Shown piece by piece: positions 45,828 through 61,032 of a DNA stretch of 64,000 nucleotides. This DNA comes from a bacterium. GTDB lineage: Bacteria > CAYTYR01 > UBA6262. Position numbers and translations under genes: made by a program. The DNA is taken from positions 5,303 to 69,302 of the forward strand of contig JAQTPL010000002.1 of the NCBI GenBank assembly GCA_028712895.1. The letters are read 5' to 3'. Numbering within the stretch: the stretch's first letter is position 1; every line of letters starts with the position of its first letter. The notes under the pieces were generated by a model. The model did not search any database, was not told the origin of the DNA, and saw nothing but the letters and a program-made list of their open reading frames with translations.

Positions 45828-46101
45828 TTTATCCTCCTCGATCTTAAAATGTTCAACGCAAATTATTGGGGTCCCAGTCTGGGTTAAAGATAGAACTTTT
45901 AGGATAAAAGCTTCCCTACCGCTTTGAATCTATCAAATAGCCTTAAAGCGTCCCCTCAAAAGATTGCTTAATCAAAGCAAAAACATCCTTAATATCTGTA
46001 ATTCGAAAGCACAAATTGGTTAAAAGCAATATTTTAACTCTTTCGGCATATCTATAATTATACCTAATTAAAGAACTTCAAAATGATTCTTTATAGCTTA
46101 C

Positions 46102-47064
46102 TCAAAATAGAGACAAATAATTCACCGTGCTTTTTTCTGCATTTAAAATATGCTTAATATCTTTTTTTAGCTTTTCTTCCCAATTATTATCCCCCTTAAT
46201 AATAAAATATTGCCCTCCCAAATCCGAAAGACCCTTGATATCTCCTTCGTAACTATTTAGTAAATGTATTGTTGGTATATTATGTGAATGAGCAATCCCA
46301 GTTTCATACGCAACATTAGGACGTAATTCACCTTCACTAAAATCAGAAATCACAAAATCTACATCAATAATTTTATTCATAATAGATTGCATTAAGCCGG
46401 GGTAAGTCACAATGGAAGTTGAATCTATTATTTCATTTATTTTGATACCATTAGCATCTAATATCTTTTTTATATCGTTAATTCTCGATTGGGAATCTAA
46501 ATCTATTCTATGCAAAACAAAACAACTTAATCCTAAATCTTCCTCTTCTAATATTTCTAATTCTCCATCAGTAAAATCATAGGCATATAAGCCATAATTA
46601 CCCCTTAATAAAGCATTTCTTAAAAGCATATTTTCAAAGATTATTTCACCATCGCATTTTAATTCTTTTATTTTATTCGACTTAAATACAATTTCAAATT
46701 TATAACCTTTTCCAGCTTGAATACGATCCGATAAACCTATGGAGCTTACGCTATAAATATATTTATTTTTAACCTCAAAAAAACTAACATAACTCTTCCA
46801 TCCACCAAGGCCTATACCATAACAATCACCCCCAGGATTTTTTCTTATAGTCATCGCAATATGCGAGCCTTTTGGATCTGAATCATTAATCTTAATTCTA
46901 AATATTATTTTTAAATTTCGGGCTAACTTATCTCTATGTGGCCCATCCAGTAAATCAGAGAAATGGAATCCATCTCCTTCTTTACGTTCCTTTGCTTTAT
47001 AACCTTTATCAACTTTATGGATAAATATATTATCTGAGCTTGTCCAATAATTACTCACAAGCAT
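46102..47064 (-). CDS. Two-domain protein: unknown N-terminal domain plus a C-terminal nucleoside-2-deoxyribosyltransferase-like / TIR-like (SLOG-type) domain
   Basis: The C-terminal segment VDFVISDFSEGELRPNVAYETGIAHSHNIPTIHLL matches the A-D-x-x-I-A-D-(5-8)-R-P-N-V-x-Y-E-x-G-x-A-x-x-x-x-K-P-x-I-x-L hallmark of NDT-like/TIR-like flavodoxin-fold domains. The N-terminal 190 aa is beta-rich and unassigned. Confidence 0.5.
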   Translation of the reverse strand: MLVSNYWTSSDNIFIHKVDKGYKAKERKEGDGFHFSDLLDGPHRDKLARNLKIIFRIKINDSDPKGSHIAMTIRKNPGGDCYGIGLGGWKSYVSFFEVKNKYIYSVSSIGLSDRIQAGKGYKFEIVFKSNKIKELKCDGEIIFENMLLRNALLRGNYGLYAYDFTDGELEILEEEDLGLSCFVLHRIDLDSQSRINDIKKILDANGIKINEIIDSTSIVTYPGLMQSIMNKIIDVDFVISDFSEGELRPNVAYETGIAHSHNIPTIHLLNSYEGDIKGLSDLGGQYFIIKGDNNWEEKLKKDIKHILNAEKSTVNYLSLF

Positions 47065-47106
47065 CTCCTTGAATTCTAATTTTAATACTTGCTCAATTTT
47101 TTTATA

Positions 47107-49743
47107 TCACACTTCTAATTTTTCCTTAAACTTATCTGTAAACTCCTGTTTCTTCAAAACCTCGTTATAAAAAGGCAAGCCTACGAGCTTGTATCTATCA
47201 GATTCAAATAAATCAATAATCTCGAAATGGATTTCTATTTCCTTAAGAAAAATTTCTTTCCATTGATCATGTACGATATAAGGCTGGCCTTTTGCCTCAA
47301 CGAATAACTGAAAGGACAATGCTTTCTTTGTGTCTTTTTCGGTTAGGAATAAAACAAAATCCGGCTCAATAGCCTTCCCATCAGAGAACCGGTATATTTT
47401 GAATATTCGCTCATTCCGTAGAAGATAAATATCCGTGTATTTCTTTTTAAGCTCATCCACTGCCTGCCGGACAAACTGAATAAAATACTTCTCCTCAGAA
47501 GTGCCATAATTCTCATCATACATATACCAGTCGTAATCTTTAAGGTGCAACCGTAAGTCGTCTTTTGTCGTTTCGCTCATGGCGATACCAAACTCTTTAT
47601 CATCGCCACCGATTAAAACATCACCTGTCTTTGATGGCTCAACTATCTTGCAAATGTTATAGCCCTTAAATTCTTTTGTCCCAATATATTCTGTTGTGCT
47701 TAACTCAATCTTAGTTGCTAATTCCTTAAAAACATCCAAAGCGACTTCATACTTATCGTGATTGCTGAGATTATCAATCTGGTCTTTTAAGCCATAAATC
47801 TCAATATCAACTTCGCCAAGATAATCATCTGAAGTTAAAAACTCATCCACTGATTTTAAAGAAGGGAAAAACTGCTTTAGATTAACAAACCGATAAAATT
47901 CAACCTTATCCAGAGCTTTTCTGTTTATATGCTTCTCAATCCGGTTAAACTTAATCGTCCGTTTATCTAAATCTTGATCCTGCCCGCCGTTTGCCTTTGC
48001 CTCATCAAAAACGCCTATTTCAGTCGTTTTACCGATTCTGAGCTTGTGCTTAAAAATAGTCTCCGAAATAAGATCTCGCATTCGCTTAACTTTTTCCAAG
48101 CTGTTTCTCTTCTGTTCGTTTACGAAAAGAAGCCCATTCTTCCAAAACCTTGTTTATTTAATACTGTCTTTGACAGAAACAGTTATTTGTCTCCGTCTGT
48201 CATCCGGGGGAGTAATGCCACTTTTGACTAACTCTGCTTTTATTTCAGCAATATAGCGGGAATCGTTAAGGCTATGATAATGAAGCTCCTCTAAAACTCT
48301 TAATTCACTGTTTATATCCTCATCATATTTGCGTTTAAACCTGTCTTGACCTTCCTCAATGACAAAAGGATAATACCTCGCACCACGCCCAATAAGCTGT
48401 GCCTCTGATACGGTAGTTTTCCCGGCTTTACCGTGCTTTGTATCTCGTGTTTCGTAAAGCCTTACAATATCATAAAGATTAAGGACATCCCACCCCTCAT
48501 TGAGCATATTTACAGTAAAAATAACCCGGGCTTCATTATGCTCAGCCTCAAGGGTGTTTACCTTAATCTGTTTTTCTTCACTGTCCGCCTTTGAATTAAC
48601 CGCAATACACTTTTCCTCTGAGAAATCGGCTTTAATTTCCCGGACTAAATTATCATAGGTTATGCTGTTATCCTTAAAGAAGGTAAACGCCTTTGTAATG
48701 ATACCATTTGAATTACTTCGCTCAACCTTCTTAATATCGCTTACCTTGAGCCGTTTAATCATCTCTTTAAAATCTTTCTCGGCTTCTTCTGACTGATGAA
48801 TAGTCTTTTGAGCTTTGATCAAGATGACAGGTTTAAGCTGGATTTTATTTTTTTCGGCAACTTTACGCCTATACTGGCTCAATATAACTGCCTGCAAAAC
48901 CCTTTCCATAAGGGCAAGGTCGGACTGTATGATCTGAACATCTTTGGAAAACTTATCTTCCCGAAATTCCTTGAGCGTGTATTGATAAATGATCTTATCT
49001 TCATACTTTGCTCGGATAGCCCGATCCTCAAGGTCAATTGTTGCCGTGTATTCCAGCATGATATTTCTGCTATCACTCTGAAACGTCTTATTGATGGTAT
49101 TTTCCCAGCTTGTGCTTTCTTCAAGTTCTTCTTTGGACATCTTCGCAATGTTTTTAGTCAAAGCGTTTATATGATGCGCTTCGTCTGAGAGAAAAACTAT
49201 TTTCCTATTCTTGAAATCTTCCAACGTGATCGCATTCTCCTGCGGAGTCCATATTCTGGAATGAAGCCCTTGAATAGTCGTGAACAGGATATTGATATTG
49301 TCCTTACTAACACCTTCAAAGTTATCAACCTCTTGAATATGCACCTCTTTGTCATTAAAGACAACCTTTTCCGAAAAGAGATACTTAGGAGAGGCTTTAT
49401 CAAGAAAGTTTGCTTTTGTCTTTTCTATAATGGTCGTGCTGTTAACAAAGAATATGAAATTCCGGTATCCTAACTTGTAAAGGTAAAGGATATTCGACGC
49501 CATCAGAAATGTTTTCCCGCTTCCGGTCGCCATATTAAAAAGCAGGTGAGTGGGAAGCGTCTTATCTGGGTAATCGGTCAAATAGTAAAGAAGCCGGGCA
49601 ATAGCTTCTTGTTGATATTCTCTGATCGAAAATCGTTGGTTAAGATTTTTAACAATATAGCCTGGTAGAGCTTTATATTGTTTGAGAAACCCTAACTGCG
49701 ATACCGAATTTAATTTTTCAACTAATGTCTGACCGTTTGTCAT
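47107..49743 (-). pseudogene. res: Type III restriction endonuclease Res subunit interrupted by one in-frame TAA (48154-48156)
   Basis: The upstream ORF 48154-49743 carries the helicase motifs (ATGSGKTF, SDEAHH). The downstream ORF 47107-48099 carries a PD-(D/E)xK-like motif (EPDFVLFL ... FVEAKG). Both ORFs are in the same frame. Only 18 sense codons and one TAA separate them, giving 879 codons in total, which is typical full-length Res. Confidence 0.75.
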
Positions 49744-49745
49744 AT

Positions 49746-51761
49746 TTACACAACCGTTTTATAAAATTCTTTATTGAGCTTTCTATCGTCCGCATTAACC
49801 TTGTAAGTGGCGTCATCTATCTCGCTCAAATTAACATAGAGATGATTTTTGTCGAGGCACTCGAACAAGACCTGCTTCTGCTCCTTGAGAGTTAATTTCT
49901 CAAATTCTTTTTCCTCAAAATTAGAAAGGTCAACATTATAACAAAAGAAGGCTTCCTTTTTCATCCTATCGTAGATATTTAAGAGCTTGCGAGTGGTGTC
50001 GGCTTCTTTTATTTCTGTCATGTATTGTTCGTTCCATTCTTTAAGCTCGGCATAGACAAAAGAACCGCCACCTTTCCAGTTAATAATCTTTGATACCCCA
50101 GTATCATCCCCCTTAATGACGTTATTTAGCCTAATAATAGAGTCATTTTCTTCATAATCCAACTGTTCTATGCCTATATACCTACGACCCATTTTATGCG
50201 CAACGGCACAAGTCGTTCCGCTTCCCAAGTGATAATCCAAAACTAAATCATCATTATTCGTCATAAGTTCTATGATCCTTTGAAGCAACCTTTCAGGTTT
50301 TTTACCGCTTTTAAATTTAACTCCACCTTCAATATCTAATCTACCCCAAGAAATATCTGTCCACATAGAACCTATTTCTTCTAATTTACTTACCTCATTA
50401 TTATTAGAAACTGCACTATCTGAAAACCAAACAACCAATGTTTTATTCCAAACATACTTAATGACGCTTTTATTTTTATTTCTCCCAGTTTTAGGAACAT
50501 ATTCGTAAGAAATTAGTTTATCCTTTTCGGGAACAATATTATTAATCTTAGTCAAGATAGATGTTTGTGCATTTGTCACCATGAATATTTTATTGAAGTA
50601 TTTCAAATATGCCTCATTATATGATAATCTGTGCTTTTTCATAACGTTGCTTACAGTATCAAATTTGAAATCACAATGTTTATATACTTTAATATTATCA
50701 ACCTCTTTAATTAATTTTTTAGAACCTATGTCCGTTAAAATTCTGGTATAATAAAAACCAATGTCATCCTGTTTGTGTTCTTCAATATGTTTTTCTATCG
50801 GAATTGAATTATACATGGGCTTGTATTCAAAATATGCCTTATCCTTACAGTAAAATAATATAAATTCATTATTTTTTTTCATTTTTAAATCCTCACCTCC
50901 GCCACTTGCACCGGAACTAACCTTAGACTTCACGGAAATTGTGTTAATAAAATTATTTCTTCCAAAAATTTCATCCATTAATACTTTTAAATAAGACTGC
51001 TCATTATCATCGCACTGAACAAAAATAGAGCCGTCTTCTTTTAATAACTCTCTTGCTATTTCGAGCCTATTTTTCATAAATACAAGCCAAGCAGAATGAT
51101 TAAATCTATCGTTATATTTAAAATCATCGTTTCCTGTATTATACGGGGGATCAATGTAAACAAGTTTTACTTGTCCTCTGAATTTCTGCTTCAAGCAGTG
51201 CAAGGCGAGAAGATTATTCCCTTTGATAATCAAGTTATCATTAGCGCTAAGCTCCGTGACTTTGTGCTTGCCCTTGCTATCATATTTCTTGAAATTCGTT
51301 AAGACTTTCGGCTCAATTAACCTATCTATTTCATCCGGAGAGAGCGTTTCATTGTAAAATATCTCATCCCGCTTTTGATCTTCCTTCTCCTGGCCACCTT
51401 CAAGCACACAATCCTTATATGCCCACGCCAAAACAACGTCGTCTCTTTCTTTCAAATAGTCACCGTTTGACATTAGACCGATCTTATTTTCAAAGCTGGT
51501 AAACGAGCCCGGGAGAAACTCTTTGTCATTAACAAATGCGATGAATTTATCCTTGTCAAAAACAAGAACCTTTTCTTTTTTAACGATCTTTTCAATGAAG
51601 AAATGCTCTTTTGCCTTATTATCAGAAAGAAGCAGTTCAATAAGAGGATGGTCGAGCTTGAGAGCCAATTCAGTGAGTTTATTTTTAAGCAGTTTTCCAT
51701 CAGCGAAGATGCGTTCGTCTTTCTGGAATAATTTCGTCAAATCAGTCATCAGATTTTGCAT
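49746..51761 (-). CDS. mod: Type III R-M DNA methyltransferase Mod subunit (N6-adenine, DPPY motif)
   Basis: VKLVYIDPPYNTGNDDFKYNDRF (motif IV DPPY) and a later FGGSGTT-like AdoMet motif (GSGTTCAVAHKMGRRYIGIE). The ATGA overlap with res gives the canonical mod-then-res order. Confidence 0.88.
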   Translation of the reverse strand: MQNLMTDLTKLFQKDERIFADGKLLKNKLTELALKLDHPLIELLLSDNKAKEHFFIEKIVKKEKVLVFDKDKFIAFVNDKEFLPGSFTSFENKIGLMSNGDYLKERDDVVLAWAYKDCVLEGGQEKEDQKRDEIFYNETLSPDEIDRLIEPKVLTNFKKYDSKGKHKVTELSANDNLIIKGNNLLALHCLKQKFRGQVKLVYIDPPYNTGNDDFKYNDRFNHSAWLVFMKNRLEIARELLKEDGSIFVQCDDNEQSYLKVLMDEIFGRNNFINTISVKSKVSSGASGGGEDLKMKKNNEFILFYCKDKAYFEYKPMYNSIPIEKHIEEHKQDDIGFYYTRILTDIGSKKLIKEVDNIKVYKHCDFKFDTVSNVMKKHRLSYNEAYLKYFNKIFMVTNAQTSILTKINNIVPEKDKLISYEYVPKTGRNKNKSVIKYVWNKTLVVWFSDSAVSNNNEVSKLEEIGSMWTDISWGRLDIEGGVKFKSGKKPERLLQRIIELMTNNDDLVLDYHLGSGTTCAVAHKMGRRYIGIEQLDYEENDSIIRLNNVIKGDDTGVSKIINWKGGGSFVYAELKEWNEQYMTEIKEADTTRKLLNIYDRMKKEAFFCYNVDLSNFEEKEFEKLTLKEQKQVLFECLDKNHLYVNLSEIDDATYKVNADDRKLNKEFYKTVV

Positions 51762-51907
51762 ATTATACCTTATCCTTTAAAGATTATCCAACTGTAATTA
51801 TTAAGCTCTATTGTGGCTTATTTTACAATAAAGAAATGTCAAAGGCAAGCTATTTCCCATTGAAACCTGAAGACATACAAAAATAATTGGAAAAACAAAG
51901 CCAATTA

Positions 51908-52840
51908 TTAAGGCTGGCCAGCCTGGTCCGGGCTGTTATCAGGAAGGAATTGGAGCTTTTTTAATGTAGCAAGGTTCTGGAATATTGACTTCTGAATGGA
52001 TTTCTCATACCGCATAACCTTCTCGGCGTTATCGCCAGCCGGGAGTGAGCATATCTTGATATTAACTTCCTCGGCAATTTTGTTTTTAAGCTTCTTCTGT
52101 TCAAGGTCATATATCTCCTTTTTATACCCTTTATTCTGCCTATCTAACTTCTGGACAAGCTCATCAGCAATATCTTTGTCCGTATAACCAGCTTTCTTTA
52201 ATATTGCCTTTACTTCTTCAAAAGGGAGCCCGCCATCTTCAAACCTCAAAGATTCATCTTCTGACATAGCCTTTTCTTTTATAGCTTCGGCAACCATAGT
52301 CAAATCTGCCTCAATATCGCTTTCCAATCCTTCGCCTGACCATGTAGGATTGTTAAAGTTGACAACACCTTTTTTAAGGGCTTTGATATAGGCATTATTC
52401 CAGTCGAAATACTCCTGTTGTTGCCTTATTTCTTCGTCAAGTTCGTCATTTGTCTTGTTTTCTCTCTTCCCCAGATCATCTTCCTTGTTGTAATAGTCAT
52501 AAATGACCATATCAAGGTATTTGCGAATGCTTCCGGTCTCAAAGCGTAGGACCCGGCGTAAACGCCAAAAGTCAACGGCGATCTTCTCAACCAGCAAATG
52601 CTCCAGCTGGCCGGAAGGACTAAGGCTCTGCGCGAGATTAGAAAGTAACTGCCGATATTCTTCCTCACTCTCTCTGCCATCACCGCTTGAGATAATCAAA
52701 TCTCGGGCAAATACGCCATGTTTAACGGCATTCTGGGAGACAATAACCTTCCCTTCATCCGTCACTGCCCCTGTTGACACTAAGGCATTCTTTTTATTTG
52801 CTTCAATCTGTTTTTTTGTCGTCATAATAACCCCCCTCAT
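51908..52840 (-). CDS. Hypothetical protein (element cargo)
   Basis: 310 aa ORF whose start overlaps the stop of 52837-53331 by 4 nt (translational coupling). No recognisable motif. Confidence 0.45.
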   Translation of the reverse strand: MRGVIMTTKKQIEANKKNALVSTGAVTDEGKVIVSQNAVKHGVFARDLIISSGDGRESEEEYRQLLSNLAQSLSPSGQLEHLLVEKIAVDFWRLRRVLRFETGSIRKYLDMVIYDYYNKEDDLGKRENKTNDELDEEIRQQQEYFDWNNAYIKALKKGVVNFNNPTWSGEGLESDIEADLTMVAEAIKEKAMSEDESLRFEDGGLPFEEVKAILKKAGYTDKDIADELVQKLDRQNKGYKKEIYDLEQKKLKNKIAEEVNIKICSLPAGDNAEKVMRYEKSIQKSIFQNLATLKKLQFLPDNSPDQAGQP

Positions 52841-53331
52841 TTGAATAGTTTATTTGCCATCTTTGGTGAAACACCCATTTTTAGAAACAATCTGTCAAAT
52901 TTGTGGCTTTCCTTTGAGCTTTCATAGGTAAGGTTATAACAATGCCTGCACCCGAAGTATTTACCTCTCCCTATATGAAGCGATCCGACCCGGTGACCAC
53001 ATACACACCCATTGACCATAATAGGACAGGTAAACCACCACCGGTGCCCCCCAAAATGGCAAGGTGTCCAGACAAGCCGTGTCTGATAGTCAAGCTCGGT
53101 CTTTTCGTTCGTATTCCTGTCAGTCTGGGTGTATTGGAAGCGGATATATTCGTCACCTTCCACCGTTGAGACCATAAAGCTAATACTGCCTGTCTTTTCA
53201 CCGTTGCGACTCCAGTTCATACCACCCGAGCGGACACCGCCGTCAAAGTAGTGATGTTTGTTAAGGAATTTCGCTGTGATTGTCTTACATTCCTCAATTG
53301 TCAATCTGCTTGAATATGACCATCTGCCCAT
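52837..53331 (-). CDS. Hypothetical Cys-rich (putative zinc-ribbon) protein (element cargo)
   Basis: 164 aa. C-terminal cluster CHFGGHRWWFTCPIMVNGCVCGH...CRHC. Coupled to the downstream 310 aa ORF. Confidence 0.45.
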   Translation of the reverse strand: MGRWSYSSRLTIEECKTITAKFLNKHHYFDGGVRSGGMNWSRNGEKTGSISFMVSTVEGDEYIRFQYTQTDRNTNEKTELDYQTRLVWTPCHFGGHRWWFTCPIMVNGCVCGHRVGSLHIGRGKYFGCRHCYNLTYESSKESHKFDRLFLKMGVSPKMANKLFK

Positions 53332-53385
53332 TGAAAATAATTTTTCTCCCTGGATTTTTCCTAAATCAATAAGGGAACATAACCC

Positions 53386-53742
53386 TTAAACAAGGCTGAC
53401 AACCGTTCCGTCAAATATATCAAGGGCCTGTTTGACTATCCCGGGAAGCAACCCCTTCTCAAGAAGCCGGCCAACAAGCTCTTTCTGTTTATCTACTGAA
53501 AGGTTATTCCAGCGCAATGAAAATGACTTTTCCATCCGTTCAAGCTCTGCCTTGTCTTGATCCGTTGCCGTGCTGTTCTCACCTTTCACAAGTTCTGACT
53601 GCGCGCCAATAGCCGAATAAAACGTAATAAGCTCTACTACCTCATCCGGCCTGTCGGCAATTGCACTGATTACCTGTAATGCTTCCTGCCTCCTGGCTTT
53701 TAATTTCCTTATACCATCCAATAAACTAAACATCTTCTTCAC
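53386..53742 (-). CDS. Hypothetical protein (element cargo)
   Basis: 118 aa ORF in the AT-rich element. No motif recognised. Confidence 0.4.
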   Translation of the reverse strand: MKKMFSLLDGIRKLKARRQEALQVISAIADRPDEVVELITFYSAIGAQSELVKGENSTATDQDKAELERMEKSFSLRWNNLSVDKQKELVGRLLEKGLLPGIVKQALDIFDGTVVSLV

Positions 53743-53951
53743 CCCTTACTTTATTTGAGACTTTAAGGCGTTTACGCTTAATCCCATATAAAACAAGCAC
53801 TTTTACTGCCTTAAAACCTGTCTTGAAACCGCCTTGAGTCTTTTAGACCATATCAAGGCGTCATAACCCATTGAAAACAAAGGGAAAACCACTATTTGGC
53901 TTAAAGTCTTAATTTTATTTCCACCTGATAAAAGAAACATTTTTGATACCC

Positions 53952-56429
53952 CTATATTTTGAACCTCTCGCATAGATCTTGAAACACCGTAACGTCCATG
54001 ATATAAACCCGTTTCTTTTCGCCGTCTATGCGTTTCTGCTCGGATATAATCTTTACCTTTTTAAGCCTGCGGGTGAGGACGTTCGTTCTCTGTATCCAGT
54101 CAAAATCCTCGTTCGCCTTGAAATAATCAAGCACCGCCTGAGCGTCAAATACCTTGATATTACCGTCCTCTTGAATAGCAGGAATCTCATCAATCATCAC
54201 CTTAACCACGTTAAGCAGTTTATAGGTCTCGTTCTGGGAAACACTATCAGACTGCTTCTCAGCAACGGACTTTTGGCTTAATACTTCCATTTTATCGGTT
54301 AGATTGGTATTTTCGCCCTGCGAGTCAATGACATTGGCAAGAAGAAACACCGGCTCCCAAATATCAAGCTCCCGGTTATTCAAATGACTCATACCCTGAA
54401 TAACGTCTCCCGGGGCATAATAGACTTCCGCAATCTGCCGGGCATAGGTAAGGGCAAACATATAAAGATCATCCCGAATGCTTCGCTGTAAGTCAATAAT
54501 CTCCCCCGTCTCTTTATACCGCTGGACGGTTTCGTCATCTTTCTTGCGTAATAGCGGAATACGGACAGTGCGATCTTGCAATACATCATCAATGTCGTTT
54601 ATCCCGGCAAACATCTTAGGCGAATAGGCACTGTATGACTTAACCACAAAACCGCCCTGACCAGTGCTTTCCGTCCGCTTCACAACGCCCGCTTTATTAA
54701 ACCCGGCATTAAGAACACTGATAAGCGAGCCATAAGTATCTTTATCCCGCTTACGAAGCTGTTCTACCTCATCAATAAACATTGTTATAAGGTTATTGGA
54801 AATATCCCGAAATATAACCGACTCCGTAGGATTGGTAATAAGCTCACCGTTAAAGGCAATACTTGCGAGTATTTCCATTAAAAGCGTCTTGCCCGATCCT
54901 TTCTCGGCGTTAAGCCACACATAAGGGTAATAGCGAAAAATCATAAAAAGGTATGTCCCCATAACCCATAGCGTGACAAAGCTCAAATACGCTTCATCCG
55001 GGAAGCAGATAAACCGCTTTATGTAGTTATAAACTTTTGAGTAAACCCCGGGAATGTCGACCGTGTAATTGTCCTCAATAAAGGTGCGTATACCCTTATA
55101 GGAAAAACGGGCAGTATCAACGGTCGTATGCTTTAGCATGATGCCTTCGCTTTCGGCGTCTTCAAAAGAGCATAACTGCTTATCAGAAGTCACAAGGCAG
55201 TGCGTATTTTTAATCGCCACCGCAAATGACATAATGCCTTCGTTAAAATCCTGTGCCGGATGAACGGTGCGTGAGCCTTCCTTATCCCGGAGTATTTCAA
55301 TCAAATCTTCTTTATTCAAGCGCTTTGCCTCTGTGTTTTTTGGCTCTTTGCGATAACTTTTAAGGACTTTCTCATAGCTCTTAAGATCATCATTCGTGAA
55401 GCTGAAATGATCTTTTATCGTATATTTAAGAATTGCGTCTGTCTGTGCCGGATTAAGCCCTGCTATTTCTTTAAGGATGGGGTCAAGCAGAGCAGGTATT
55501 TTCGACTTGTGCGTGTCTTTCGGGATTGCTTTTATCTTCTTCTCAAGCTCGGCAAGTTTGTCCTCTGAGAGGATCGGCTCTGCGGTGCCTGCCGGTGGAA
55601 TCTTAATATCAATACCGTATTTTTCTTTGGCCACTTTCAATGCTTGTGTAAATTTATCACCCCTTAGGCTACCTGGCATAGCTTCCCGGCAATCAATAAT
55701 CCCTTCCAATACGGCGATAAGAGATATTGCCCCGCCCCCCGAGTTGCAACGGAAACAGTGCCACACATTTTTATCAGGATGGACAACTAAATTACTATTA
55801 TTCGTTGAACCGTGAACAGGATGACCACATACATACTGGCTTCCGATCCGCTTCGTCTGGACACCAGTTTTATTCAACACTTCAACAACGCTTATATCGC
55901 CTGCCTCTGTTTCAACGTCTTTTTGCGGATAATCAAAAGTGATATATGCCAGAAGCTCGGAGTAAATCTGTTCTCGCGTTATTTCTGAAATATTAACATC
56001 ATTAACAACCTCATACATAACGCCAGTATCAGGATGAATACTACCCGGGGCAACCACCTGCGAACCGCTTGAAATAATTTCCCCATAATGCATATCGTCC
56101 TTTTTTAACACGATCTTCTTTGGGATATCTTTTGAAAGGTAATAATAATGAAACCCTTTGCGAGTCTTGACCGTGAGAGTATCCGGGAAACGCTCTTTTA
56201 TGACAGTGCTTATTACTTCTGTATCGGCATCAATAATGATAAGATTGCCATATCCACCAAGCACACCGTAATTACCACCTTGATCAATCCATGATTGAAT
56301 TTCGGCAAACGAATAAGGTTTATTCTGCCAGTCTGGTTCAAAGGGGATTTTTGAGCGGGCTTTCAGCTTCACGAATCCGAAGCTGTCTATTTGTAACTGC
56401 TTAGGTATTCTTTGCTTTACCATCTCCAT
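53952..56429 (-). CDS. Replication protein: N-terminal bifunctional primase-polymerase (Prim-Pol) domain, Zn-binding region, C-terminal P-loop helicase-like domain
   Basis: Prim-Pol motifs GNYGVLGGYGNLIIIDADTE. Zinc ligands CGHPVHG...HCFRCNSGG. Walker A NAEKGSGKTLLM and Walker B FIDEVEQ. Confidence 0.75.
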   Translation of the reverse strand: MEMVKQRIPKQLQIDSFGFVKLKARSKIPFEPDWQNKPYSFAEIQSWIDQGGNYGVLGGYGNLIIIDADTEVISTVIKERFPDTLTVKTRKGFHYYYLSKDIPKKIVLKKDDMHYGEIISSGSQVVAPGSIHPDTGVMYEVVNDVNISEITREQIYSELLAYITFDYPQKDVETEAGDISVVEVLNKTGVQTKRIGSQYVCGHPVHGSTNNSNLVVHPDKNVWHCFRCNSGGGAISLIAVLEGIIDCREAMPGSLRGDKFTQALKVAKEKYGIDIKIPPAGTAEPILSEDKLAELEKKIKAIPKDTHKSKIPALLDPILKEIAGLNPAQTDAILKYTIKDHFSFTNDDLKSYEKVLKSYRKEPKNTEAKRLNKEDLIEILRDKEGSRTVHPAQDFNEGIMSFAVAIKNTHCLVTSDKQLCSFEDAESEGIMLKHTTVDTARFSYKGIRTFIEDNYTVDIPGVYSKVYNYIKRFICFPDEAYLSFVTLWVMGTYLFMIFRYYPYVWLNAEKGSGKTLLMEILASIAFNGELITNPTESVIFRDISNNLITMFIDEVEQLRKRDKDTYGSLISVLNAGFNKAGVVKRTESTGQGGFVVKSYSAYSPKMFAGINDIDDVLQDRTVRIPLLRKKDDETVQRYKETGEIIDLQRSIRDDLYMFALTYARQIAEVYYAPGDVIQGMSHLNNRELDIWEPVFLLANVIDSQGENTNLTDKMEVLSQKSVAEKQSDSVSQNETYKLLNVVKVMIDEIPAIQEDGNIKVFDAQAVLDYFKANEDFDWIQRTNVLTRRLKKVKIISEQKRIDGEKKRVYIMDVTVFQDLCERFKI

Positions 56430-56449
56430 ATCAATAATTTCCTTTCTTA

Positions 56450-56737
56450 CTATGTATTAAAAACCATTGTCTTTAAATCTTGAATTGCATTTTTAAAAGC
56501 CGTTATATTCACAAGCCCGTCATTAAAAAATTCCTGTATAAGCTCTTTGCGGTCATCCCGGTCATCAAAGACAAAAACAAACTTGTTGCCATTTCTGCAT
56601 TTATCCCTTAGTTTCATGCCTTTTGATTTTAAGTATGCTGAAAGGTAAAGGTCACTTGTCCTGTATGTGCCCATTATTTGCACTGTCACTTTTGCAATCT
56701 CCATCCACCACCTGTTTTGATATAAAATCACGGGCAA
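56450..56737 (-). CDS. Hypothetical small protein (element)
   Basis: 95 aa ORF immediately upstream of the replication gene. Confidence 0.4.
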   Translation of the reverse strand: MPVILYQNRWWMEIAKVTVQIMGTYRTSDLYLSAYLKSKGMKLRDKCRNGNKFVFVFDDRDDRKELIQEFFNDGLVNITAFKNAIQDLKTMVFNT

Positions 56738-56835
56738 TGATCCTCGTCAGTATGCGAAGCCCAGTGTCTAATTCATTTGTATTATTATTACTAATCAAAA
56801 CTGTTTCGTTGCTAATAGTCATTACATTCATCTGT

Positions 56836-57081
56836 TTATTCCACGATTTTATAAATATCGTTAAACTCATTTATCTTTAAGTATTCCATCATTTTCTGTC
56901 TTAATTCTGGCGAAGGGTATCTATACCCACTCATAAGCTGGGACATATACCCGCTTGTAATGCCTATTCTATGGGCAAAGTTGTTTTGTGAAATATTTTT
57001 CAGTAGAAGGTATTTCTTAATCCTTGTAGATTTTAGCAAAGCTCTCATTTGTATTTCTCCTTTCTTGCTATTGTTATGCAA
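56836..57081 (-). CDS. XRE-family helix-turn-helix regulator (Cro/CI-like)
   Basis: NISQNNFAHRIGITSGYMSQLMSG is an HTH_3 motif. Divergent from the plus-strand XRE gene. Confidence 0.7.
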   Translation of the reverse strand: MHNNSKKGEIQMRALLKSTRIKKYLLLKNISQNNFAHRIGITSGYMSQLMSGYRYPSPELRQKMMEYLKINEFNDIYKIVE

Positions 57082-57196
57082 GTTAATTATATAACACTTT
57101 TTATATCATGTCAACTGTTTAGCAAAAATAATGCTTGCTAAAGTATAGCACTTATGATATTATGTTTTTACAGATACATAAAAAGGGGGACAGGTT

Positions 57197-57556
57197 ATGG
57201 CTAATGAATTTGGCGCTTACCTGAAGAAATTAAGAGAGGATAGGGAACTTACTCTTAGGGAAGTTGAGGCAAAGGCAAAGATTTCCAATGCCTATTTATC
57301 TCAATTAGAAAGGGGTGAAAAAGGAATACCTACAATCAAAGTCCTAAGCAGACTTGCAAAAGCATACGGCGTTCTTATAAACGAAATGATGGCAAAAGCC
57401 GAAAGTGCTTTTAAAGATGAAAAAATAGATATTACTGCTACTACTCCTAATGGTGAATTTGTTGCAAGAGGATATGATAAATTACCAGAAGATAAAAAGA
57501 TGGCTTTACAAAGTTATCTTCAACATCTCTTAAGTGAGGCGAAAAAACAAAAATGA
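57197..57556 (+). CDS. XRE-family helix-turn-helix regulator (ImmR-like)
   Basis: LREVEAKAKISNAYLSQLERGEK is an HTH_3 motif. GGGGG Shine-Dalgarno upstream. Overlaps the ImmA-like gene start (ATGA). Confidence 0.8.
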   Translation: MANEFGAYLKKLREDRELTLREVEAKAKISNAYLSQLERGEKGIPTIKVLSRLAKAYGVLINEMMAKAESAFKDEKIDITATTPNGEFVARGYDKLPEDKKMALQSYLQHLLSEAKKQK

Positions 57557-58512
57557 CCAAGACTTTTGACGATTATCTTGGAGCAAGACCTTCCCTGTAT
57601 GGAAGAAACCTACTTAAGCGATTAGGTAACCAAAAATATTATGTTAATGAATATGACGTAATAGATTTTCTCGGTTATGAAATAAAACCGCTTAACCCTG
57701 AAGAACATAAAGGGATTTTGGAGTATAAAGGCATAGGCGATATTTTTGATGACCTTTGCGCAATAACATTTTACCGTGACAATATCATGTTTATTTCTGA
57801 ATCTATGCCCCCTACAAGGAAAAGATACACTATTTTCCACGAAATTGGCCACGAAATAAATGAACATCATCCGAAGGGATTAGTTTCAATAGGCAAAAAC
57901 AGTGATATAGATACTACTTCATATAAGCTTGCCGAGAGAGATGCTTTTTTAGCAGGTGCGGAAGTAATGTTTCCGCTAAAAAACTTTATTAATGATTCAA
58001 CCAGTCTTTCTTTGCAGTTTTCTTCTATTGAAAGTATTGCCCAAAGATATTGCGGTTCTTTTGAAGCTACGGCGATAAGGTATACTCTTACCAATCAAAA
58101 TATTATGGCTATTGTAGTAGTAAAAGAGAACGATTTAATTGACAACATAGAGAAGTTCACAAATAATTCATCTCCTAATGAATATTTATTGCCTTTACAA
58201 ATACCATTTTCTCAAAAACCAAATCTATCACCTACGCCTATTGCACCCCTGAGGGTTCAATATTGCATTCGTTCTTATCTTTTCCCAAAATTCATAAAAT
58301 CCGGCATTGAAATCGGTGAAGATAACCTTATATATAAATCATGGAAATCAAATATTTCTTTAACCGGTGAAATCCCCGCTTCGGTATTTGGTTCTTCTGC
58401 TAAGTTCAACTATACAGCGGAATGCAGACCGATTAACGGCAGAGTCTTTGTTTTATTATCACTTCCTGACAATCAGTTAAAACTATTTAATGGAGTCTCA
58501 TTATGCGGGTAG
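57553..58512 (+). CDS. ImmA/IrrE-family zinc metallopeptidase
   Basis: HEIGHEINEHH (HEXXH). Typical partner of an XRE repressor in ICE and prophage switches. Confidence 0.8.
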   Translation: MTKTFDDYLGARPSLYGRNLLKRLGNQKYYVNEYDVIDFLGYEIKPLNPEEHKGILEYKGIGDIFDDLCAITFYRDNIMFISESMPPTRKRYTIFHEIGHEINEHHPKGLVSIGKNSDIDTTSYKLAERDAFLAGAEVMFPLKNFINDSTSLSLQFSSIESIAQRYCGSFEATAIRYTLTNQNIMAIVVVKENDLIDNIEKFTNNSSPNEYLLPLQIPFSQKPNLSPTPIAPLRVQYCIRSYLFPKFIKSGIEIGEDNLIYKSWKSNISLTGEIPASVFGSSAKFNYTAECRPINGRVFVLLSLPDNQLKLFNGVSLCG

Positions 58513-60071
58513 CTTTGTATGCCAGAGTATCATCGGAAAAACAGGCTGAAAAGGACTTATCACTGCCAGCCCAGTTAAAAGCTCTTAGGGAATATGCTCT
58601 AAAACGGCAGTGGACAATCGTTGAAGAATTTATTGATGAGGCTGAAAGTGCCCGGACAGCCGATCGCCCGGAATTTCAACGAATGATTACATCAGCTAAG
58701 CATAAAGACGCCCCCTTCAATGTGATCCTTGTTTGGAAATTGAACCGCTTTGCCCGCAACCGTGAAGATTCTATAATTTACAAATCGCTACTCCGTAAGC
58801 GTGGTATTCAGGTTATTTCAACAAATGAAAACATTGATGAAGGCCCAACCGGTAAGCTTCTTGAGGGCATTATTGAGTCTATTGATGAATTTTACTCAGC
58901 AAATCTTTCACAGGACACTATCCGGGGATTAAAAGAAAATGCTATGCGGGGCTTCTGGAATGGTGGAATCGCCCCCTTTGGATATGACTTTGACTTTGTA
59001 AAGGTAGGAAACAACACAAAGCGGAAACTTAAAATCAATAAAATAAGAGCTTCAATAGTAAAAAAGATATTTAGCTTATCACTTGAGGGTGTAGGGATAA
59101 AAGAAATTGCAAAAGCATTGAACCAGGAAGGCTTTAAACGTAAAAGCGGTCAACCGTGGACAAACTCAAGTATCAGTTATATCTTAAATAACCCTATTTA
59201 TACTGGGTGTCTATTCTGGGATGAAGGCAAACACAATCCAAAAGCCGGCAAGCCCGTGATTAAGGTGCCAAATACTCACCCGGCCATTATTTCTGAAGGA
59301 GATTTCAATGAAGCCAGAAAACAGATAAGCTCCCGGTCAAGAAAAGTCATTCATCCAAGGGCATTAGGATCAAGATATCTTCTAAGCGGTATTTTACGGT
59401 GCAAAAAGTGCGGGAGTGCCATGACGGCATGTAGTGCTAAGTCTGGGAAGTTCCATTATTATTTCTGCCAGACATACCTCAAAAAAGGCAGGGAATACTG
59501 TGACCAAAAGCTAATCCCTGTTAATAAAATTGAGCCTTTAATCATTCAGACCATTAACAAGAGAATACTCACAGAAGAAAATATCAGGAAACTGCTTTTA
59601 ATGCTAAACGCTGAATTGCGGAAATTTGACGTTGAATACAAAACAAAACTTGATCTTATTGATGAGGGGTTAGAGGATAAGTTAAAACGCAGAGCTAAGA
59701 TATTCGAGGGTATAGAAACAGGAGCTATTAATCTACAAGATATCGCCCCAAGATTGAAAGAGCTTAATACTGAAATTGCCGAATTAGAACAGCATAAGCA
59801 GGATATACTCGAAAGACATCAGAATGGCGATGGCTTAAATATAAGTGATGAGCAGTTAAAACCATATACGGATGACCTCATTGAAACACTGTCAAAAGGA
59901 GCAATATCGGAAAGAAAGAGCTTTATACGCTCGTTCGTCAAAAGAATTACCGTCAATTACCCGCAATTAGAGCTTGAATACACTTTTCCCCTACCTATAA
60001 AAGGAAAAGACAGAACATCTACAAGAGAAGTTCTGTCTTTGAGTCAGTTTGGGGTGGCTAACGGGATTTGA
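58503..60071 (+). CDS. Large serine recombinase (integrase)
   Basis: Resolvase catalytic N-terminus MRVALYARVSSEKQ...SLPAQ, recombinase domain, and Cys zinc-ribbon (CKKCGSAMTAC...YFCQ). The C-terminal 7 codons overlap tRNA-His. Confidence 0.9.
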   Translation: MRVALYARVSSEKQAEKDLSLPAQLKALREYALKRQWTIVEEFIDEAESARTADRPEFQRMITSAKHKDAPFNVILVWKLNRFARNREDSIIYKSLLRKRGIQVISTNENIDEGPTGKLLEGIIESIDEFYSANLSQDTIRGLKENAMRGFWNGGIAPFGYDFDFVKVGNNTKRKLKINKIRASIVKKIFSLSLEGVGIKEIAKALNQEGFKRKSGQPWTNSSISYILNNPIYTGCLFWDEGKHNPKAGKPVIKVPNTHPAIISEGDFNEARKQISSRSRKVIHPRALGSRYLLSGILRCKKCGSAMTACSAKSGKFHYYFCQTYLKKGREYCDQKLIPVNKIEPLIIQTINKRILTEENIRKLLLMLNAELRKFDVEYKTKLDLIDEGLEDKLKRRAKIFEGIETGAINLQDIAPRLKELNTEIAELEQHKQDILERHQNGDGLNISDEQLKPYTDDLIETLSKGAISERKSFIRSFVKRITVNYPQLELEYTFPLPIKGKDRTSTREVLSLSQFGVANGI

Positions 60072-60963: not shown

Positions 60964-61032
60964 TCCTATTTTGAAGGCAGATGCTCTATCCAGCTGAGCT
61001 ACAGGGACAAATATAATATTTTCAATTATATA

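What the first reader, a model, noticed from the sequence alone, without database searches (positions are those of the whole stretch)
45850..60050. AT-rich integrated element next to tRNA-His carrying a type III R-M system, a SLOG/TIR-like protein and unknown cargo
Base composition drops sharply after 45.83 kb and recovers after tRNA-His. Inside are a self-contained replication and integration toolkit (Prim-Pol/helicase, a divergent XRE and XRE-ImmA/IrrE switch, a large serine recombinase) and a defence-type cargo (mod-res, a nucleoside-2-deoxyribosyltransferase-like/TIR-like protein, and three unknown ORFs). The recombinase reading frame runs 22 nt into the 3' end of tRNA-His, consistent with integration at that tRNA. 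This is a candidate defence island on an integrative element in an otherwise housekeeping region.
Basis: partly seen in the sequence, partly recalled or inferred. Interest (0 to 1): 0.6.

Follow-up and report, generated by a model that had tools for sequence, protein, structure and literature searches.

The report
Serine-recombinase mobile element in tRNA-His
A 14.2-kb mobile element is inserted in the last bases of the tRNA-His gene by a large serine recombinase, and that recombinase belongs to a large, undescribed clade that targets the 3' ends of at least nine tRNA species, a habit usually attributed to tyrosine integrases.

Summary
I could also define the element to the base.

- **Boundaries.** attL core is GT at 45871-45872 and attR core is GT at 60054-60055, 14,183 bp apart. 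Each core abuts one arm of a 26-nt imperfect inverted repeat (20/26), which together form attP. Crossover falls at tRNA-His nt 71/72, and the element resupplies C73-CCA.
- **Independent support.** A near-identical contiguous attP occurs on circular 9-10 kb relatives (L145/L146, L147/L148). The same geometry recurs in L074 and L095.
- **Recombinase clade.** 50 of 72 recombinase relatives (43-79% identity) overlap an antisense tRNA (Ala, Asn, Leu, Glu, Met, His, Lys, Ile, Gln). The P-arm GTTCT sits exactly 20 nt from the tRNA end.
- **Backbone, shared with relatives.** An XRE-ImmA-LSR operon faces XRE-DUF5659-PrimPol and three small ORFs.
- **Cargo, the AT-rich 46.1-51.8 kb part only.** It holds a type III mod, a res broken by one TAA codon (AAA in a sibling assembly), and a lectin-like plus nucleoside-deoxyribosyltransferase-like protein.

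No empty site or excised form of this particular element was found, and its transfer route is unknown.

The parts
45845..45898 (+). attL. Host B arm (45845-45870), crossover dinucleotide GT (45871-45872), element P' arm CCCAGTCTGGGTTAAAGATAGAACTT (45873-45898).
   Evidence: This is the best inverted-repeat partner of the P arm (20/26). None of 186 random region pairs reached that score. The P' arm is homologous to the sequence that follows the P arm in the contiguous attP of the circular relative L145/L146. TTGGGGT is shared with attR.
46102..47064 (-). Cargo gene unk320. N-terminal concanavalin-like/CBM66-like beta-sandwich plus a C-terminal nucleoside 2-deoxyribosyltransferase / nucleotide N-glycosidase-like domain (invariant E253, G255, D280).
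   Evidence: The protein itself has no Pfam or PADLOC hit. An HMM search found 2184 relatives, and 48 of 60 relatives scanned hit PF05014. The AF2 model has pLDDT 87.9, and the N-domain matches CBM66 at E = 1.8e-9. The C-domain matches BcmB/MilB CMP N-glycosidases, NDTs and DNPH1. It is absent from related elements. GC is 0.30.
47107..49743 (-). Type III restriction subunit gene (res), interrupted by one in-frame TAA at 48154-48156. The N-part is 48154-49743 (helicase) and the C-part is 47107-48099 (PD...EAK endonuclease).
   Evidence: PADLOC REase_III profile positions 23-503 (E = 1.3e-103) and 568-859 (E = 3.2e-25) fall in the two ORFs, which are in the same frame. Logan contig L005 (SRR22315509) has AAA (Lys) at this codon. 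That is the only mismatch in 4867 nt.
49746..51761 (-). Type III modification methyltransferase (mod), apparently intact.
   Evidence: Pfam N6_N4_Mtase at 5e-45 and TypeIII_RM_meth at 7.9e-17. PADLOC MTase_III at 3.5e-198. No simple-sequence repeats that would suggest phase variation.
51908..53742 (-). Three backbone ORFs of unknown function: 310 aa (51908-52840), 164 aa (52837-53331, Cys-rich) and 118 aa (53386-53742).
   Evidence: None has a curated family. tblastn finds them in related elements: unk118 in 5 loci, the unk310 N-terminus in L070 (69% identity) and L072, and unk164 in L072 (53%). GC is 0.435, like the host.
53952..56429 (-). Replication protein: Prim-Pol, CHC2 zinc ribbon, P-loop and DUF3631 (RepAM-like).
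   Evidence: Pfam PF09250, PF01807 and PF12307. PHROG DNA primase. 68-70% identical orthologues occupy the same position in L064, L067 and L070.
56450..57081 (-). Start of the leftward operon: small XRE/HTH_3 protein (56836-57081) and DUF5659 protein (56450-56737).
   Evidence: Pfam. XRE81 homologues are found in 20 related loci and DUF5659 in 2.
57197..58512 (+). ImmR-like XRE repressor (57197-57556) and ImmA/IrrE M78 metalloprotease (57553-58512, HEIGH motif). Their reading frames overlap each other and the recombinase gene.
   Evidence: Pfam HTH_3/HTH_31 and Peptidase_M78. PADLOC capP at 4e-17. Overlapping start and stop coordinates. Homologues lie upstream of the LSR in 28 loci (XRE) and 6 loci (ImmA).
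58503..60071 (+). Large serine recombinase (522 aa as integrated). The last 9 element-encoded codons are the attP P arm, and the final 5 codons plus the stop lie in host tRNA-His DNA.
   Evidence: Resolvase, Recombinase and Zn_ribbon_recom domains. PHROG integrase at 4.5e-119. The nucleophile context YARVSS is invariant in alignment A1. 2080 homologues score E < 1e-30.
60028..60081 (+). attR. Element P arm AAGTTCTGTCTTTGAGTCAGTTTGGG (60028-60053), crossover GT (60054-60055, which is tRNA nt 72/71), host B' arm (60056-60081, acceptor stem and T arm of tRNA-His).
   Evidence: GTTCT starts exactly 20 nt before the tRNA 3' end in the window and in 46 related loci.
60050..60126 (-). tRNA-His(GTG), intact. 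Nt -1 to 72 are host DNA, and C73-C74-C75-A76 plus the trailer are supplied by the element.
   Evidence: ARAGORN. Rfam tRNA at 67.4 bits. The reconstructed attB also encodes an intact tRNA end.

Best explanation
Window 45871-60055 is a 14.18-kb integrative, probably self-replicating element. Its large serine recombinase (LSR) inserted it into the 3' end of the tRNA-His gene.

**Integration (inferred from anatomy and relatives).**
- The LSR pairs a roughly 54-bp attP with an attB centred on nt 71/72 of the tRNA acceptor stem, and exchanges strands at the GT dinucleotide.
- attP consists of two 26-nt inverted arms around that non-palindromic GT. One arm is the last nine codons of the LSR gene.
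- The P arm carries TTTGGG, so the element rebuilds C73-CCA and tRNA-His stays functional.

**Regulation (inferred).**
- The layout resembles ICEBs1. An XRE repressor, an ImmA-type metalloprotease and the LSR form one rightward operon.
- A divergent promoter drives a small XRE, DUF5659, the Prim-Pol/RepAM-like replicase, three conserved small ORFs and then the cargo.
- A stress signal would lead ImmA to cleave the repressor. The leftward operon would then be derepressed, the element would excise with a still-unidentified directionality factor, and the circle would replicate.

**Cargo (shown by annotation).**
- The cargo slot next to attP holds a type III R-M system whose res is knocked out by a nonsense codon in this genome.
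- It also holds a lectin-like plus nucleotide-N-glycosidase-like protein, a plausible but untested defence effector.

**Family (shown).** The element belongs to a widespread metagenomic family of 9-14 kb elements with the same backbone and variable R-M or defence cargo. Their LSR clade targets the same position of different tRNA genes.
For: **att sites in the window.**
- The best inverted-repeat pair with equal core between the two ends is 45871/60054, at 20/26. None of 186 random region pairs reached 20; the maximum was 19.
- TTGGGGT is shared at both junctions.

**Independent validation from relatives.**
- The circular relative L145/L146 carries a contiguous attP, AAGTTCTATCTATAAGCAAGAATGGG-GT-CCCAAACTGGTTAAAAGATAGAACTT. 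Its P' arm matches the window's left-end sequence at 21 of 26 positions.
- L147 and L148 are 10,165-nt contigs from two samples. Each has a 30-nt terminal overlap, and they are rotations of one another, so the element is circular.
- L074 and L095 (tRNA-Asn) show the same geometry, with the core 4 and 5 nt in from the tRNA end.

**Family behaviour.**
- 50 of 72 LSR relatives with enough flanking DNA overlap or abut an antisense tRNA, across nine tRNA species.
- GTTCT starts at -20 from the tRNA end in 47 sequences. In the other 4 it starts at -21 or -22, and the ARAGORN call begins 1-2 nt later.
- The C-termini of homologues read as antisense tRNA (G-x-x-x-G-I-R-T-R). A few read as the attP type, ending in W-x-K-D/E-R-T-F.
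- L059 and L065 occupy tRNA-His followed by tRNA-Arg(TCT), as in the window, but carry different cargo.

**Backbone versus cargo.** tblastn against the related loci separates the two, and GC content agrees.

**Protein domains.**
Against: - No empty attB and no attP junction of this particular element was found in viral or JGI metagenome contigs.
- All four assemblies that carry the left flank are occupied.
- The predicted circular-form LSR protein is not in the 15-billion-protein collection.
- The left-flank gene gives no syntenic relatives, so no 'before and after' comparison exists for this host.
- 20/26 only narrowly exceeds the best random score of 19. A 19/26 AT-rich alternative exists at 46055/60181.
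- No directionality factor, relaxase, oriT or packaging gene was identified, so excision control and cell-to-cell transfer are unexplained.
- 22 of 72 relatives have no intact tRNA after the LSR. Some of these show tRNA fragments and tandem elements.
Confidence: 0.85

Rival explanations
1. The element is a fixed, no longer mobile relic. It integrated once by the mechanism above but is now a domesticated island in this lineage, and its cargo is decaying.
For: - The res gene carries a nonsense codon.
- Every assembly that spans either junction is occupied.
- No empty site, attP junction or circular-form protein was found.
Against: - The LSR, ImmA, both XRE genes and the primase are all full length, and catalytic and metal-binding motifs are intact.
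- Both att arms are as well conserved as in a free circular relative.
- The res stop is a polymorphism: AAA in L005. That points to recent events, not long decay.
- The collections searched probably do not contain this sample.
Confidence: 0.1
2. The element is a phage satellite or prophage remnant whose transfer depends on a helper phage, not a plasmid-like or conjugatively mobilised element.
For: - The regulatory module (XRE/ImmA), the primase and the integrase resemble PICI-like layouts.
- In L063, an LSR of the same clade lies next to phage tail-like genes such as SPP1_Dit.
- PHROG families hit the integrase, the regulators and the primase.
Against: - No capsid, terminase, portal, tail or packaging-redirection gene was found in the window element or in the 9-10 kb circular relatives.
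- A viral-contig scan with the LSR found nothing.
- The best phage LSR is only about 35% identical.
Confidence: 0.15
3. The boundaries are different: attL is near 46055 and attR near 60181, so tRNA-His would be carried by the element instead of being its target.
For: A 19/26 inverted repeat with an equal TA core lies at 46055/60181.
Against: - A score of 19 lies within the random distribution (maximum 19), and the arms are AT-rich and of low complexity.
- Relatives with unrelated cargo sit next to the same host tRNA-His and tRNA-Arg pair.
- The P-arm spacing to the tRNA end is fixed in 47 sequences.
- The real attP of L145 matches the 45873-45898 arm.
Confidence: 0.03
4. The region is ancestral and was never inserted. 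The low GC simply reflects AT-rich R-M genes.
For: The backbone GC (0.43 for the primase and small ORFs) is host-like. No empty site is known.
Against: - Complete LSR att architecture is present at both ends.
- Homologous elements exist as free circles.
- The same backbone sits at nine different tRNA species in unrelated hosts.
Confidence: 0.02

Closest known systems
[quoted passage not shown] 2011, PMC3218068)
   Same: A serine recombinase integrates the element into a tRNA gene, which that paper explicitly calls rare. The elements are small. Their replication modules are Prim-Pol or RepAM (DUF3631), the same domains as the window's replicase.
   Different: AICEs carry an FtsK/SpoIIIE-type Tra protein for conjugation, and none is present here. 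The hosts are Actinobacteria, whereas here they are uncultivated lineages. The crossover position and the attP-in-ORF layout were not described for AICEs. Sequence relatedness of the two recombinase groups was not tested here.
Tycheposons of Prochlorococcus (Hackl et al., bioRxiv 10.1101/2020.12.28.424599)
   Same: Compact elements that integrate at tRNA genes, with a site-specific integrase, a primase/helicase replication module and a variable cargo module. A minority (27 of 937) carry a large serine recombinase.
   Different: Tycheposons overwhelmingly use tyrosine recombinases. Their cargo is mostly nutrient-acquisition genes, and some are PICI-like with packaging genes. No sequence relationship to them was tested. 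The elements described here carry R-M or defence cargo and an ImmR/ImmA switch.
Phage-type large serine integrases (A118/LI, Bxb1, phiC31) and their att-site architecture (Rutherford et al. 2013, PMC3783163)
   Same: The domain order is the same: Resolvase, Recombinase, zinc ribbon. The site is about 50 bp, with imperfect inverted arms around a non-palindromic dinucleotide. A distal motif at bp 17-24 of the attP arms (GTTCT) recurs closer to the centre on the attB side, where GTTC of the T loop lies at bp 15-18.
   Different: The target is a tRNA gene instead of a protein-coding gene. The offset of the distal motif is 6 bp here, against 5 bp in LI. attP overlaps the integrase's own stop region. 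Best identity to any LSR in the annotated phage (GenBank/INPHARED) and plasmid (PLSDB) collections is about 35%.
ICEBs1 immR-immA-int regulatory module (recalled from established knowledge, not looked up here)
   Same: An XRE repressor, an M78/ImmA antirepressor protease and the integrase sit in one operon, divergent from the excision and replication operon. Integration is at a tRNA gene.
   Different: The ICEBs1 integrase is a tyrosine recombinase, and that element is conjugative. Cleavage of the repressor by ImmA is untested here.
Type III R-M systems (EcoP15I-like Mod/Res)
   Same: mod carries N6_N4_Mtase and TypeIII_RM_meth domains. It is followed immediately by res, which has a ResIII helicase and a C-terminal PD-(D/E)xK nuclease.
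   Different: res is truncated by a nonsense codon in this genome, so the locus probably acts as an orphan methyltransferase here.
Nucleoside 2-deoxyribosyltransferase / nucleotide N-glycosidase superfamily (NDT, DNPH1/Rcl, MilB/BcmB) and TIR-like effector domains
   Same: The C-domain fold of unk320 matches BcmB, MilB, NDT and DNPH1 best, and TIR-STING more weakly. The family has an invariant Glu in an N-V-x-Y-E-x-G motif. 48 of 60 relatives hit PF05014.
   Different: It is fused to an N-terminal CBM66/ConA-like beta-sandwich. It has no PADLOC model, and its activity and role are unknown.

Membership tests
Large serine recombinase (serine integrase) | N-terminal Resolvase catalytic domain with the nucleophilic Ser, followed by the Recombinase domain and a zinc-ribbon domain | tested here: met
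   PF00239 at 1.7e-34, PF07508 at 3.4e-24 and PF13408 at 5.3e-15. Y6, R8 and S10 are invariant in 28 sequences.
Large serine recombinase (serine integrase) | Short att sites with imperfect inverted arms around a 2-bp crossover that is identical in attL and attR | tested here: met
   20/26 arms abut GT at 45871 and 60054, and none of 186 random pairs scored as well. The geometry is replicated in L074 and L095 and in the contiguous attP of L145/L146.
Large serine recombinase (serine integrase) | Catalyses attP x attB recombination, with a directionality factor needed for excision | not testable with these tools
Integrated mobile element (genomic island) | Existence of an empty site and/or an excised circular form | tested here: inconclusive
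   For this element, neither was found, and all flanking contigs are occupied. For family members, circular forms with attP exist.
Integrated mobile element (genomic island) | The same integrase and backbone occur with different cargo at the homologous site in other genomes | tested here: met
   L059-61 and L065 sit at tRNA-His followed by tRNA-Arg(TCT) and carry different cargo. The split between backbone and cargo comes from tblastn.
Type III restriction-modification system | Mod methyltransferase with N6_N4_Mtase and type III Mod domains | tested here: met
   PF01555 at 5e-45 and PF12564 at 7.9e-17. PDLC03635 at 3.5e-198.
Type III restriction-modification system | Intact Res subunit, with the helicase and the C-terminal nuclease in one polypeptide | tested here: not met
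   An in-frame TAA at 48154-48156 splits the profile match into positions 23-503 and 568-859. The gene is intact (AAA) in L005.
ImmR/ImmA-type (XRE + M78 protease) switch | An HTH_3 repressor adjacent to a Peptidase_M78 protein with an HExxH motif | tested here: met
   PF01381 at 2.1e-13 and PF06114 at 9.2e-10. The HEIGH motif is present in the sequence. PADLOC capP at 4.1e-17.
ImmR/ImmA-type (XRE + M78 protease) switch | Signal-dependent cleavage of the repressor by the protease | not testable with these tools
   This needs an experiment.
Integrative conjugative element (ICE/AICE) | Conjugation machinery: relaxase, T4SS, or FtsK/SpoIIIE-like Tra | tested here: not met
   The 14 predicted genes between the att sites were scanned, and none has such a domain.
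Prophage / phage satellite | Structural, packaging or capsid-redirection genes | tested here: not met
   PHROG hits are limited to the integrase, the regulators and the primase. A viral-contig scan was negative.
Nucleoside 2-deoxyribosyltransferase-like / TIR-like effector (unk320) | Sequence match to PF05014 or TIR-type models | tested here: inconclusive
   The window protein has no Pfam hit. 48 of 60 family members hit PF05014 and 6 hit CAP12-PCTIR_TIR.
Nucleoside 2-deoxyribosyltransferase-like / TIR-like effector (unk320) | Flavodoxin-like NDT fold with a conserved catalytic Glu | tested here: met
   The C-domain model has pLDDT 87.1. Its best PDB matches are BcmB, NDT, DNPH1 and MilB, with E from 1.7e-5 to 5e-5 and TM 0.55-0.66. 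E253 is invariant.
SCCmec Ccr recombinases | Score above the NCBIfam equivalog cut-off | tested here: not met
   CcrB scores 184 bits against a cut-off of 900, and CcrC 126 against 900.

The most novel reading that the evidence does not exclude
This recombinase represents a large, previously unrecognised clade of serine integrases specialised for tRNA genes.

- All members would cut at nt 71/72 of the acceptor stem.
- They would use the universally conserved T-loop (GTTCRAAT) as a constant zinc-ribbon-domain anchor on the attB side.
- They would change tRNA target (at least nine species) by changing only acceptor-stem recognition and the matching few bases of attP.
- Because attP lies inside the integrase's own 3' end, integration swaps the protein's C-terminal tail: ...VPVWVKDRTFRIKASLPL in the circle, ...VANGI when integrated. 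This could contribute to directionality or expression control.

Such a clade would be a natural, modular set of tRNA-retargetable integrases, and the vehicle of a family of 9-14 kb elements that shuttle R-M and defence genes.
Probability: 0.35. Interest if true: 0.75.

Novelty: new variant of a known kind. Interest (0 to 1): 0.6.

Why it matters
tRNA genes are the classic target of tyrosine integrases. [quoted passage not shown] Ghinet et al. called such cases rare, citing phiRSM1 as the only earlier example known to them and adding eight Mycobacterium elements of their own (PMC3218068). The largest LSR survey analysed only protein-coding targets (PMC10083194).

This window leads to dozens of related serine integrases that all sit at the same nucleotide of nine different tRNA species, with att sites definable to the base and free circular forms in metagenomes. 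That has three consequences.

- **Annotation.** It gives a simple rule for delimiting these islands: GTTCT lies 20 nt before an antisense tRNA end.
- **Biology.** It identifies a compact backbone that moves R-M and candidate defence genes among uncultivated bacteria.
- **Engineering.** It offers a natural series of integrases whose target specificity appears to vary in a small, readable part of the site, which could help in retargeting serine integrases.

For this locus specifically, the element probably now acts as a carrier of an orphan type III methyltransferase and an uncharacterised nucleotide-glycosidase-like protein.

Tried and rejected
- **Empty site through the left-flank gene.** The MEDS protein found 49 loci in genome contigs at up to 80% identity, across many phyla. 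None has tRNA-His upstream, so it gave no synteny and no empty site.
- **Junction search.** I used a degenerate 42-nt pattern that would match attB, attP, attL or attR of this element. It found only the two window sites, and nothing in viral contigs or metagenome contigs.
- **Look-ups through right-flank proteins.** The response regulator and the intron ORF returned only occupied or uninformative contigs.
- **Exact look-up of the predicted circular-form LSR proteins** (window, L074, L095). None is in the collection.
- **LSR scan of viral contigs.** No relatives. The phage and plasmid collections have nothing above about 35% identity.
- **L062, L063 and L064 as possible attP forms.** Rejected. 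They show tRNA 3' fragments followed by other elements, that is, tandem arrays, and no palindromic attP.
- **Alternative boundary 46055/60181.** Rejected as a chance-level, AT-rich match.
- **Alternative genetic code or programmed readthrough at the res TAA.** Rejected, because a sibling assembly has AAA at that codon and differs at no other base over 4.9 kb.
- **Phase-variable repeats in mod or res.** None found.
- **ARAGORN's automatic intron call for the neighbouring split tRNA ('tRNA-SeC').** Rejected in favour of the splice that gives a canonical tRNA-Arg(UCU).

Full report
**1. The observation**

GC content outside 45871-60055 is 0.453 and inside it is 0.378. The fall at about 45.85 kb is abrupt, but the interval is heterogeneous.
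- The left 6 kb is 0.347, with the first gene at 0.30.
- The primase and three small ORFs are 0.43, like the host.
- The regulatory and recombinase end is 0.368.

ARAGORN and Rfam both find an intact bacterial-type tRNA-His(GTG) at 60050-60126 on the minus strand. The 522-codon recombinase ORF (58503-60071, plus strand) overlaps it by 22 nt.

- a large serine recombinase (Resolvase, Recombinase, Zn_ribbon_recom);
- an M78/ImmA protease and an XRE protein just upstream, with overlapping reading frames;
- a divergent small XRE;
- DUF5659;
- a Prim-Pol, CHC2 and DUF3631 replicase;
- a type III mod (PADLOC E = 3.5e-198) and a type III res.

**2.

The res gene is two ORFs in the same frame, separated by a single TAA at 48154-48156. 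The PADLOC REase_III profile is matched at positions 23-503 by the upstream ORF and 568-859 by the downstream one.

An independent assembly of a sibling sample (Logan SRR22315509, L005) is identical to the window over 4867 nt except at 48156. There the codon is AAA, which encodes Lys. So res is freshly inactivated in this genome and polymorphic in the population, while mod looks intact.

**3. Boundaries**

Large serine recombinases do not leave long direct repeats. I therefore looked for the expected signature: two inverted arms, each abutting the same dinucleotide.

The best pair between the two ends places GT at 45871-45872 and at 60054-60055.
- P arm: AAGTTCTGTCTTTGAGTCAGTTTGGG.
- P' arm: CCCAGTCTGGGTTAAAGATAGAACTT.
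- The arms are complementary at 20 of 26 positions. None of 186 random region pairs from the window reached 20; the best was 19.
- TTGGGGT is shared at both junctions.

The crossover maps to nt 72/71 of the tRNA-His acceptor stem. The element supplies C73-CCA and a new trailer. The reconstructed attB also encodes an intact tRNA end. The distance between the two cores is 14,183 bp.

The recombinase ORF crosses attR.
- As integrated, the protein ends ...FG-VANGI.
- On a circle, it would end ...FG-VPVWVKDRTFRIKASLPL.

**4. Tests with related sequences**

The recombinase has 2080 homologues at E < 1e-30, and the best is 79% identical. The C-terminal tails of the top 120 almost all read as the antisense translation of a tRNA 3' end: G-x-x-x-G-I, often continuing R-T-R.

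I fetched contexts by exact look-up and by a metagenome scan with an alignment of 28 homologues. The results were as follows.
- 50 of 72 loci with at least 60 nt after the gene have a tRNA on the opposite strand that overlaps or abuts the recombinase stop.
- The tRNA species are Ala 19, Asn 10, Leu 7, Glu 6, Met 3, His 2, and Lys, Ile and Gln 1 each.
- In the window and 46 loci, the P-arm GTTCT begins exactly 20 nt before the tRNA 3' end. In the four exceptions the tRNA call starts 1-2 nt later.
- Codons E509-V510-L511 are encoded by this motif and are invariant.

Two tRNA-Asn elements with enough upstream DNA show the same architecture, with the core at the same tRNA position. L074 is 11.05 kb and L095 is 10.5 kb.

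L059-61 and L065 occupy tRNA-His followed by tRNA-Arg(TCT), the same host context as the window, but carry different cargo.

**5. Free circular relatives**

A few homologue tails have the predicted 'circular' form instead: P0064 ends ...GVPNWLKDRTFRI and P0041 ends ...GSPNCSEPRTFQL. Their contigs turn out to be circles.
- L147 and L148 come from two samples. Both are 10,165 nt, both have 30-nt terminal overlaps, and they are rotations of each other.
- The two ends of L145 (9139 nt) fall inside one ImmA-like gene, which is intact in L146.

L145 and L146 carry a contiguous attP, AAGTTCTATCTATAAGCAAGAATGGG-GT-CCCAAACTGGTTAAAAGATAGAACTT. It is 20/26 inverted around the same GT. Its P' arm matches, at 21 of 26 positions, the sequence I had assigned as P' at the window's left end.

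This is independent confirmation of the att assignment. It also shows that the family exists as excised or episomal circles.

**6. Backbone and cargo**

tblastn of all the element's proteins against the related loci separates backbone from cargo.
- **Shared with relatives:** the recombinase, both XREs, ImmA, DUF5659, the replicase (68-70% identity in L064, L067 and L070) and the three 'unknown' ORFs at 51908-53742.
- **Not shared:** mod, res and the 320-aa protein.

These three genes make up the AT-rich part next to attL. In the circles, the cargo likewise follows attP directly. Cargo differs between relatives:
- L148: a SacI-like nuclease and a Dam-type methylase;
- L059: a methylase, a helicase and SIR2;
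- L062: a type I R-M system.

The family is therefore a compact backbone with a cargo slot that usually holds R-M or defence genes.

**7. The 320-aa cargo protein**

It has no direct family hit and only three word-index homologues. A profile search of 1.84 billion representatives found 2184 relatives, many of about 310 aa. Of 60 relatives scanned, 48 hit PF05014 (nucleoside 2-deoxyribosyltransferase), 6 hit a TIR model, and a few hit 3-keto-disaccharide hydrolase or LamG.

The AlphaFold model is confident (pLDDT 87.9).
- The N-domain matches CBM66 and galectin-type beta-sandwiches.
- The C-domain, modelled alone (pLDDT 87.1), best matches the CMP N-glycosidases BcmB and MilB, NDTs and DNPH1. 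TIR-STING matches more weakly.
- E253, G255 and D280 are invariant.

A defence role is plausible but untested.

**8. Mechanism**

*Shown by sequence:*
- the att architecture and the reconstitution of the tRNA;
- the operon layout: XRE, ImmA and the recombinase rightward, and a divergent XRE, DUF5659, the replicase, small ORFs and cargo leftward.

*Inferred from known families:*
- an ImmR/ImmA-type derepression, as in ICEBs1;
- replication of the excised circle by the Prim-Pol/RepAM-like protein, as in pMEA300-type AICEs;
- a serine-integrase reaction at GT.

The distal GTTC motif lies at bp 21-24 of both attP arms. On the tRNA side of attB it lies at bp 15-18, where it is the T loop. This resembles the 5-bp inward shift of the zinc-ribbon-domain motif described for LI integrase. 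I offer this as a hypothesis for how one clade can use many tRNAs.

*Unknown:* the directionality factor and the route of cell-to-cell transfer. No relaxase, T4SS, Tra, capsid or packaging gene is present.

**9. Comparison with what is known**

- The Islander paper (2014) said serine integrases were not known to target tRNA genes.
- Ghinet et al. (2011) called such integration rare. They cited phage phiRSM1 as the only earlier case known to them, and reported eight Mycobacterium AICEs at tRNA-Leu of their own.
- The large LSR survey of Durrant et al. does not mention tRNA.
- Tycheposons are conceptually the closest element type, and 27 of 937 use a large serine recombinase.

The annotated phage (GenBank/INPHARED) and plasmid (PLSDB) collections hold no recombinase more than about 35% identical. 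I therefore rate the element a new variant of a known kind. It is an ordinary integrative cargo element in concept, driven by an undescribed and apparently large tRNA-specialised serine-integrase clade.

**10. Limits**

- Everything here is in silico.
- No empty site or excised form of this exact element was found, and the host has no syntenic relatives in the collections.
- The 20/26 score is only just beyond the random maximum. The confidence rests on convergence with the relatives, not on that score alone.
- I did not test whether this clade includes the Mycobacterium or tycheposon recombinases.

Noticed in passing
window 60290-61008 (minus strand): The tRNA next to tRNA-His is a tRNA-Arg(UCU) split by a 646-nt insertion (60328-60973) between anticodon-loop nt 34 and 35. 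The insertion carries a 152-aa PD-(D/E)XK (PF11645) ORF at 60381-60839. The 5' exon ends in U and the insert ends in G, as in group I introns. In-silico splicing gives a canonical tRNA-Arg(tct). The Rfam Intron_gpI match is only 22 bits (E = 0.063, below gathering). Relatives L059 and L065 have an uninterrupted tRNA-Arg(tct) at this position.
   Followed up: partly
window 48154-48156; L005 position 155: The res nonsense codon TAA is AAA in the Logan assembly of SRR22315509, and it is the only difference in 4867 nt. The restriction subunit is therefore polymorphic (on or off) within closely related populations, while mod is unchanged.
   Followed up: yes
window 46195 and 56544: Two independent assemblies end at exactly 46195: GCA_028719005.1 contig JAQUKR010000059.1 and a Logan SRR22315506 contig. 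GCA_028719005.1 contig JAQUKR010000090.1 starts at 56544. No repeat within the window explains these breaks (no shared 15-mers). This suggests coverage loss or a variant cargo and replicase segment in those samples.
   Followed up: partly
window 42967-45827: The left-flank MEDS-domain protein (203 aa) is followed by a histidine kinase that also starts with a MEDS domain; 152 nt are 76% identical (repeat D1). Homologues of the small MEDS protein at 70-80% identity occur in MAGs labelled as many different phyla, always in different contexts. That suggests either horizontal spread or very strong conservation.
   Followed up: no
L062 11560-11600; L063 11540-11600; L064 6180-6230: In some relatives the recombinase is followed only by a 16-23-nt tRNA 3' fragment and then by another element: a heavy-metal resistance island, phage tail-like genes, or a tyrosine-integrase element. 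This indicates tandem accretion of different elements at the same tRNA.
   Followed up: partly
window 60132-60280: The spacer between tRNA-His and tRNA-Arg contains a 34-nt inverted repeat (60132-60165 / 60247-60280, 79% complementary) and 3.4 copies of TTTTGAA (60148-60171). Its function is unknown.
   Followed up: no
window 63711-63981 versus L001: Nine of the eleven differences between the window and GCA_028719005.1 over 7.4 kb cluster in 270 nt of the DUF1015 gene, and only two lie in the element. This looks like a local recombination tract or a hypervariable patch in the host gene.
   Followed up: no
window 59945-60053 and alignment A1: The invariant C-terminal residues E509-V510-L511 of the recombinase family coincide with the conserved attP motif GAAGTTCT. 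This stretch appears to be constrained both as protein and as the recombinase's own binding site.
   Followed up: partly
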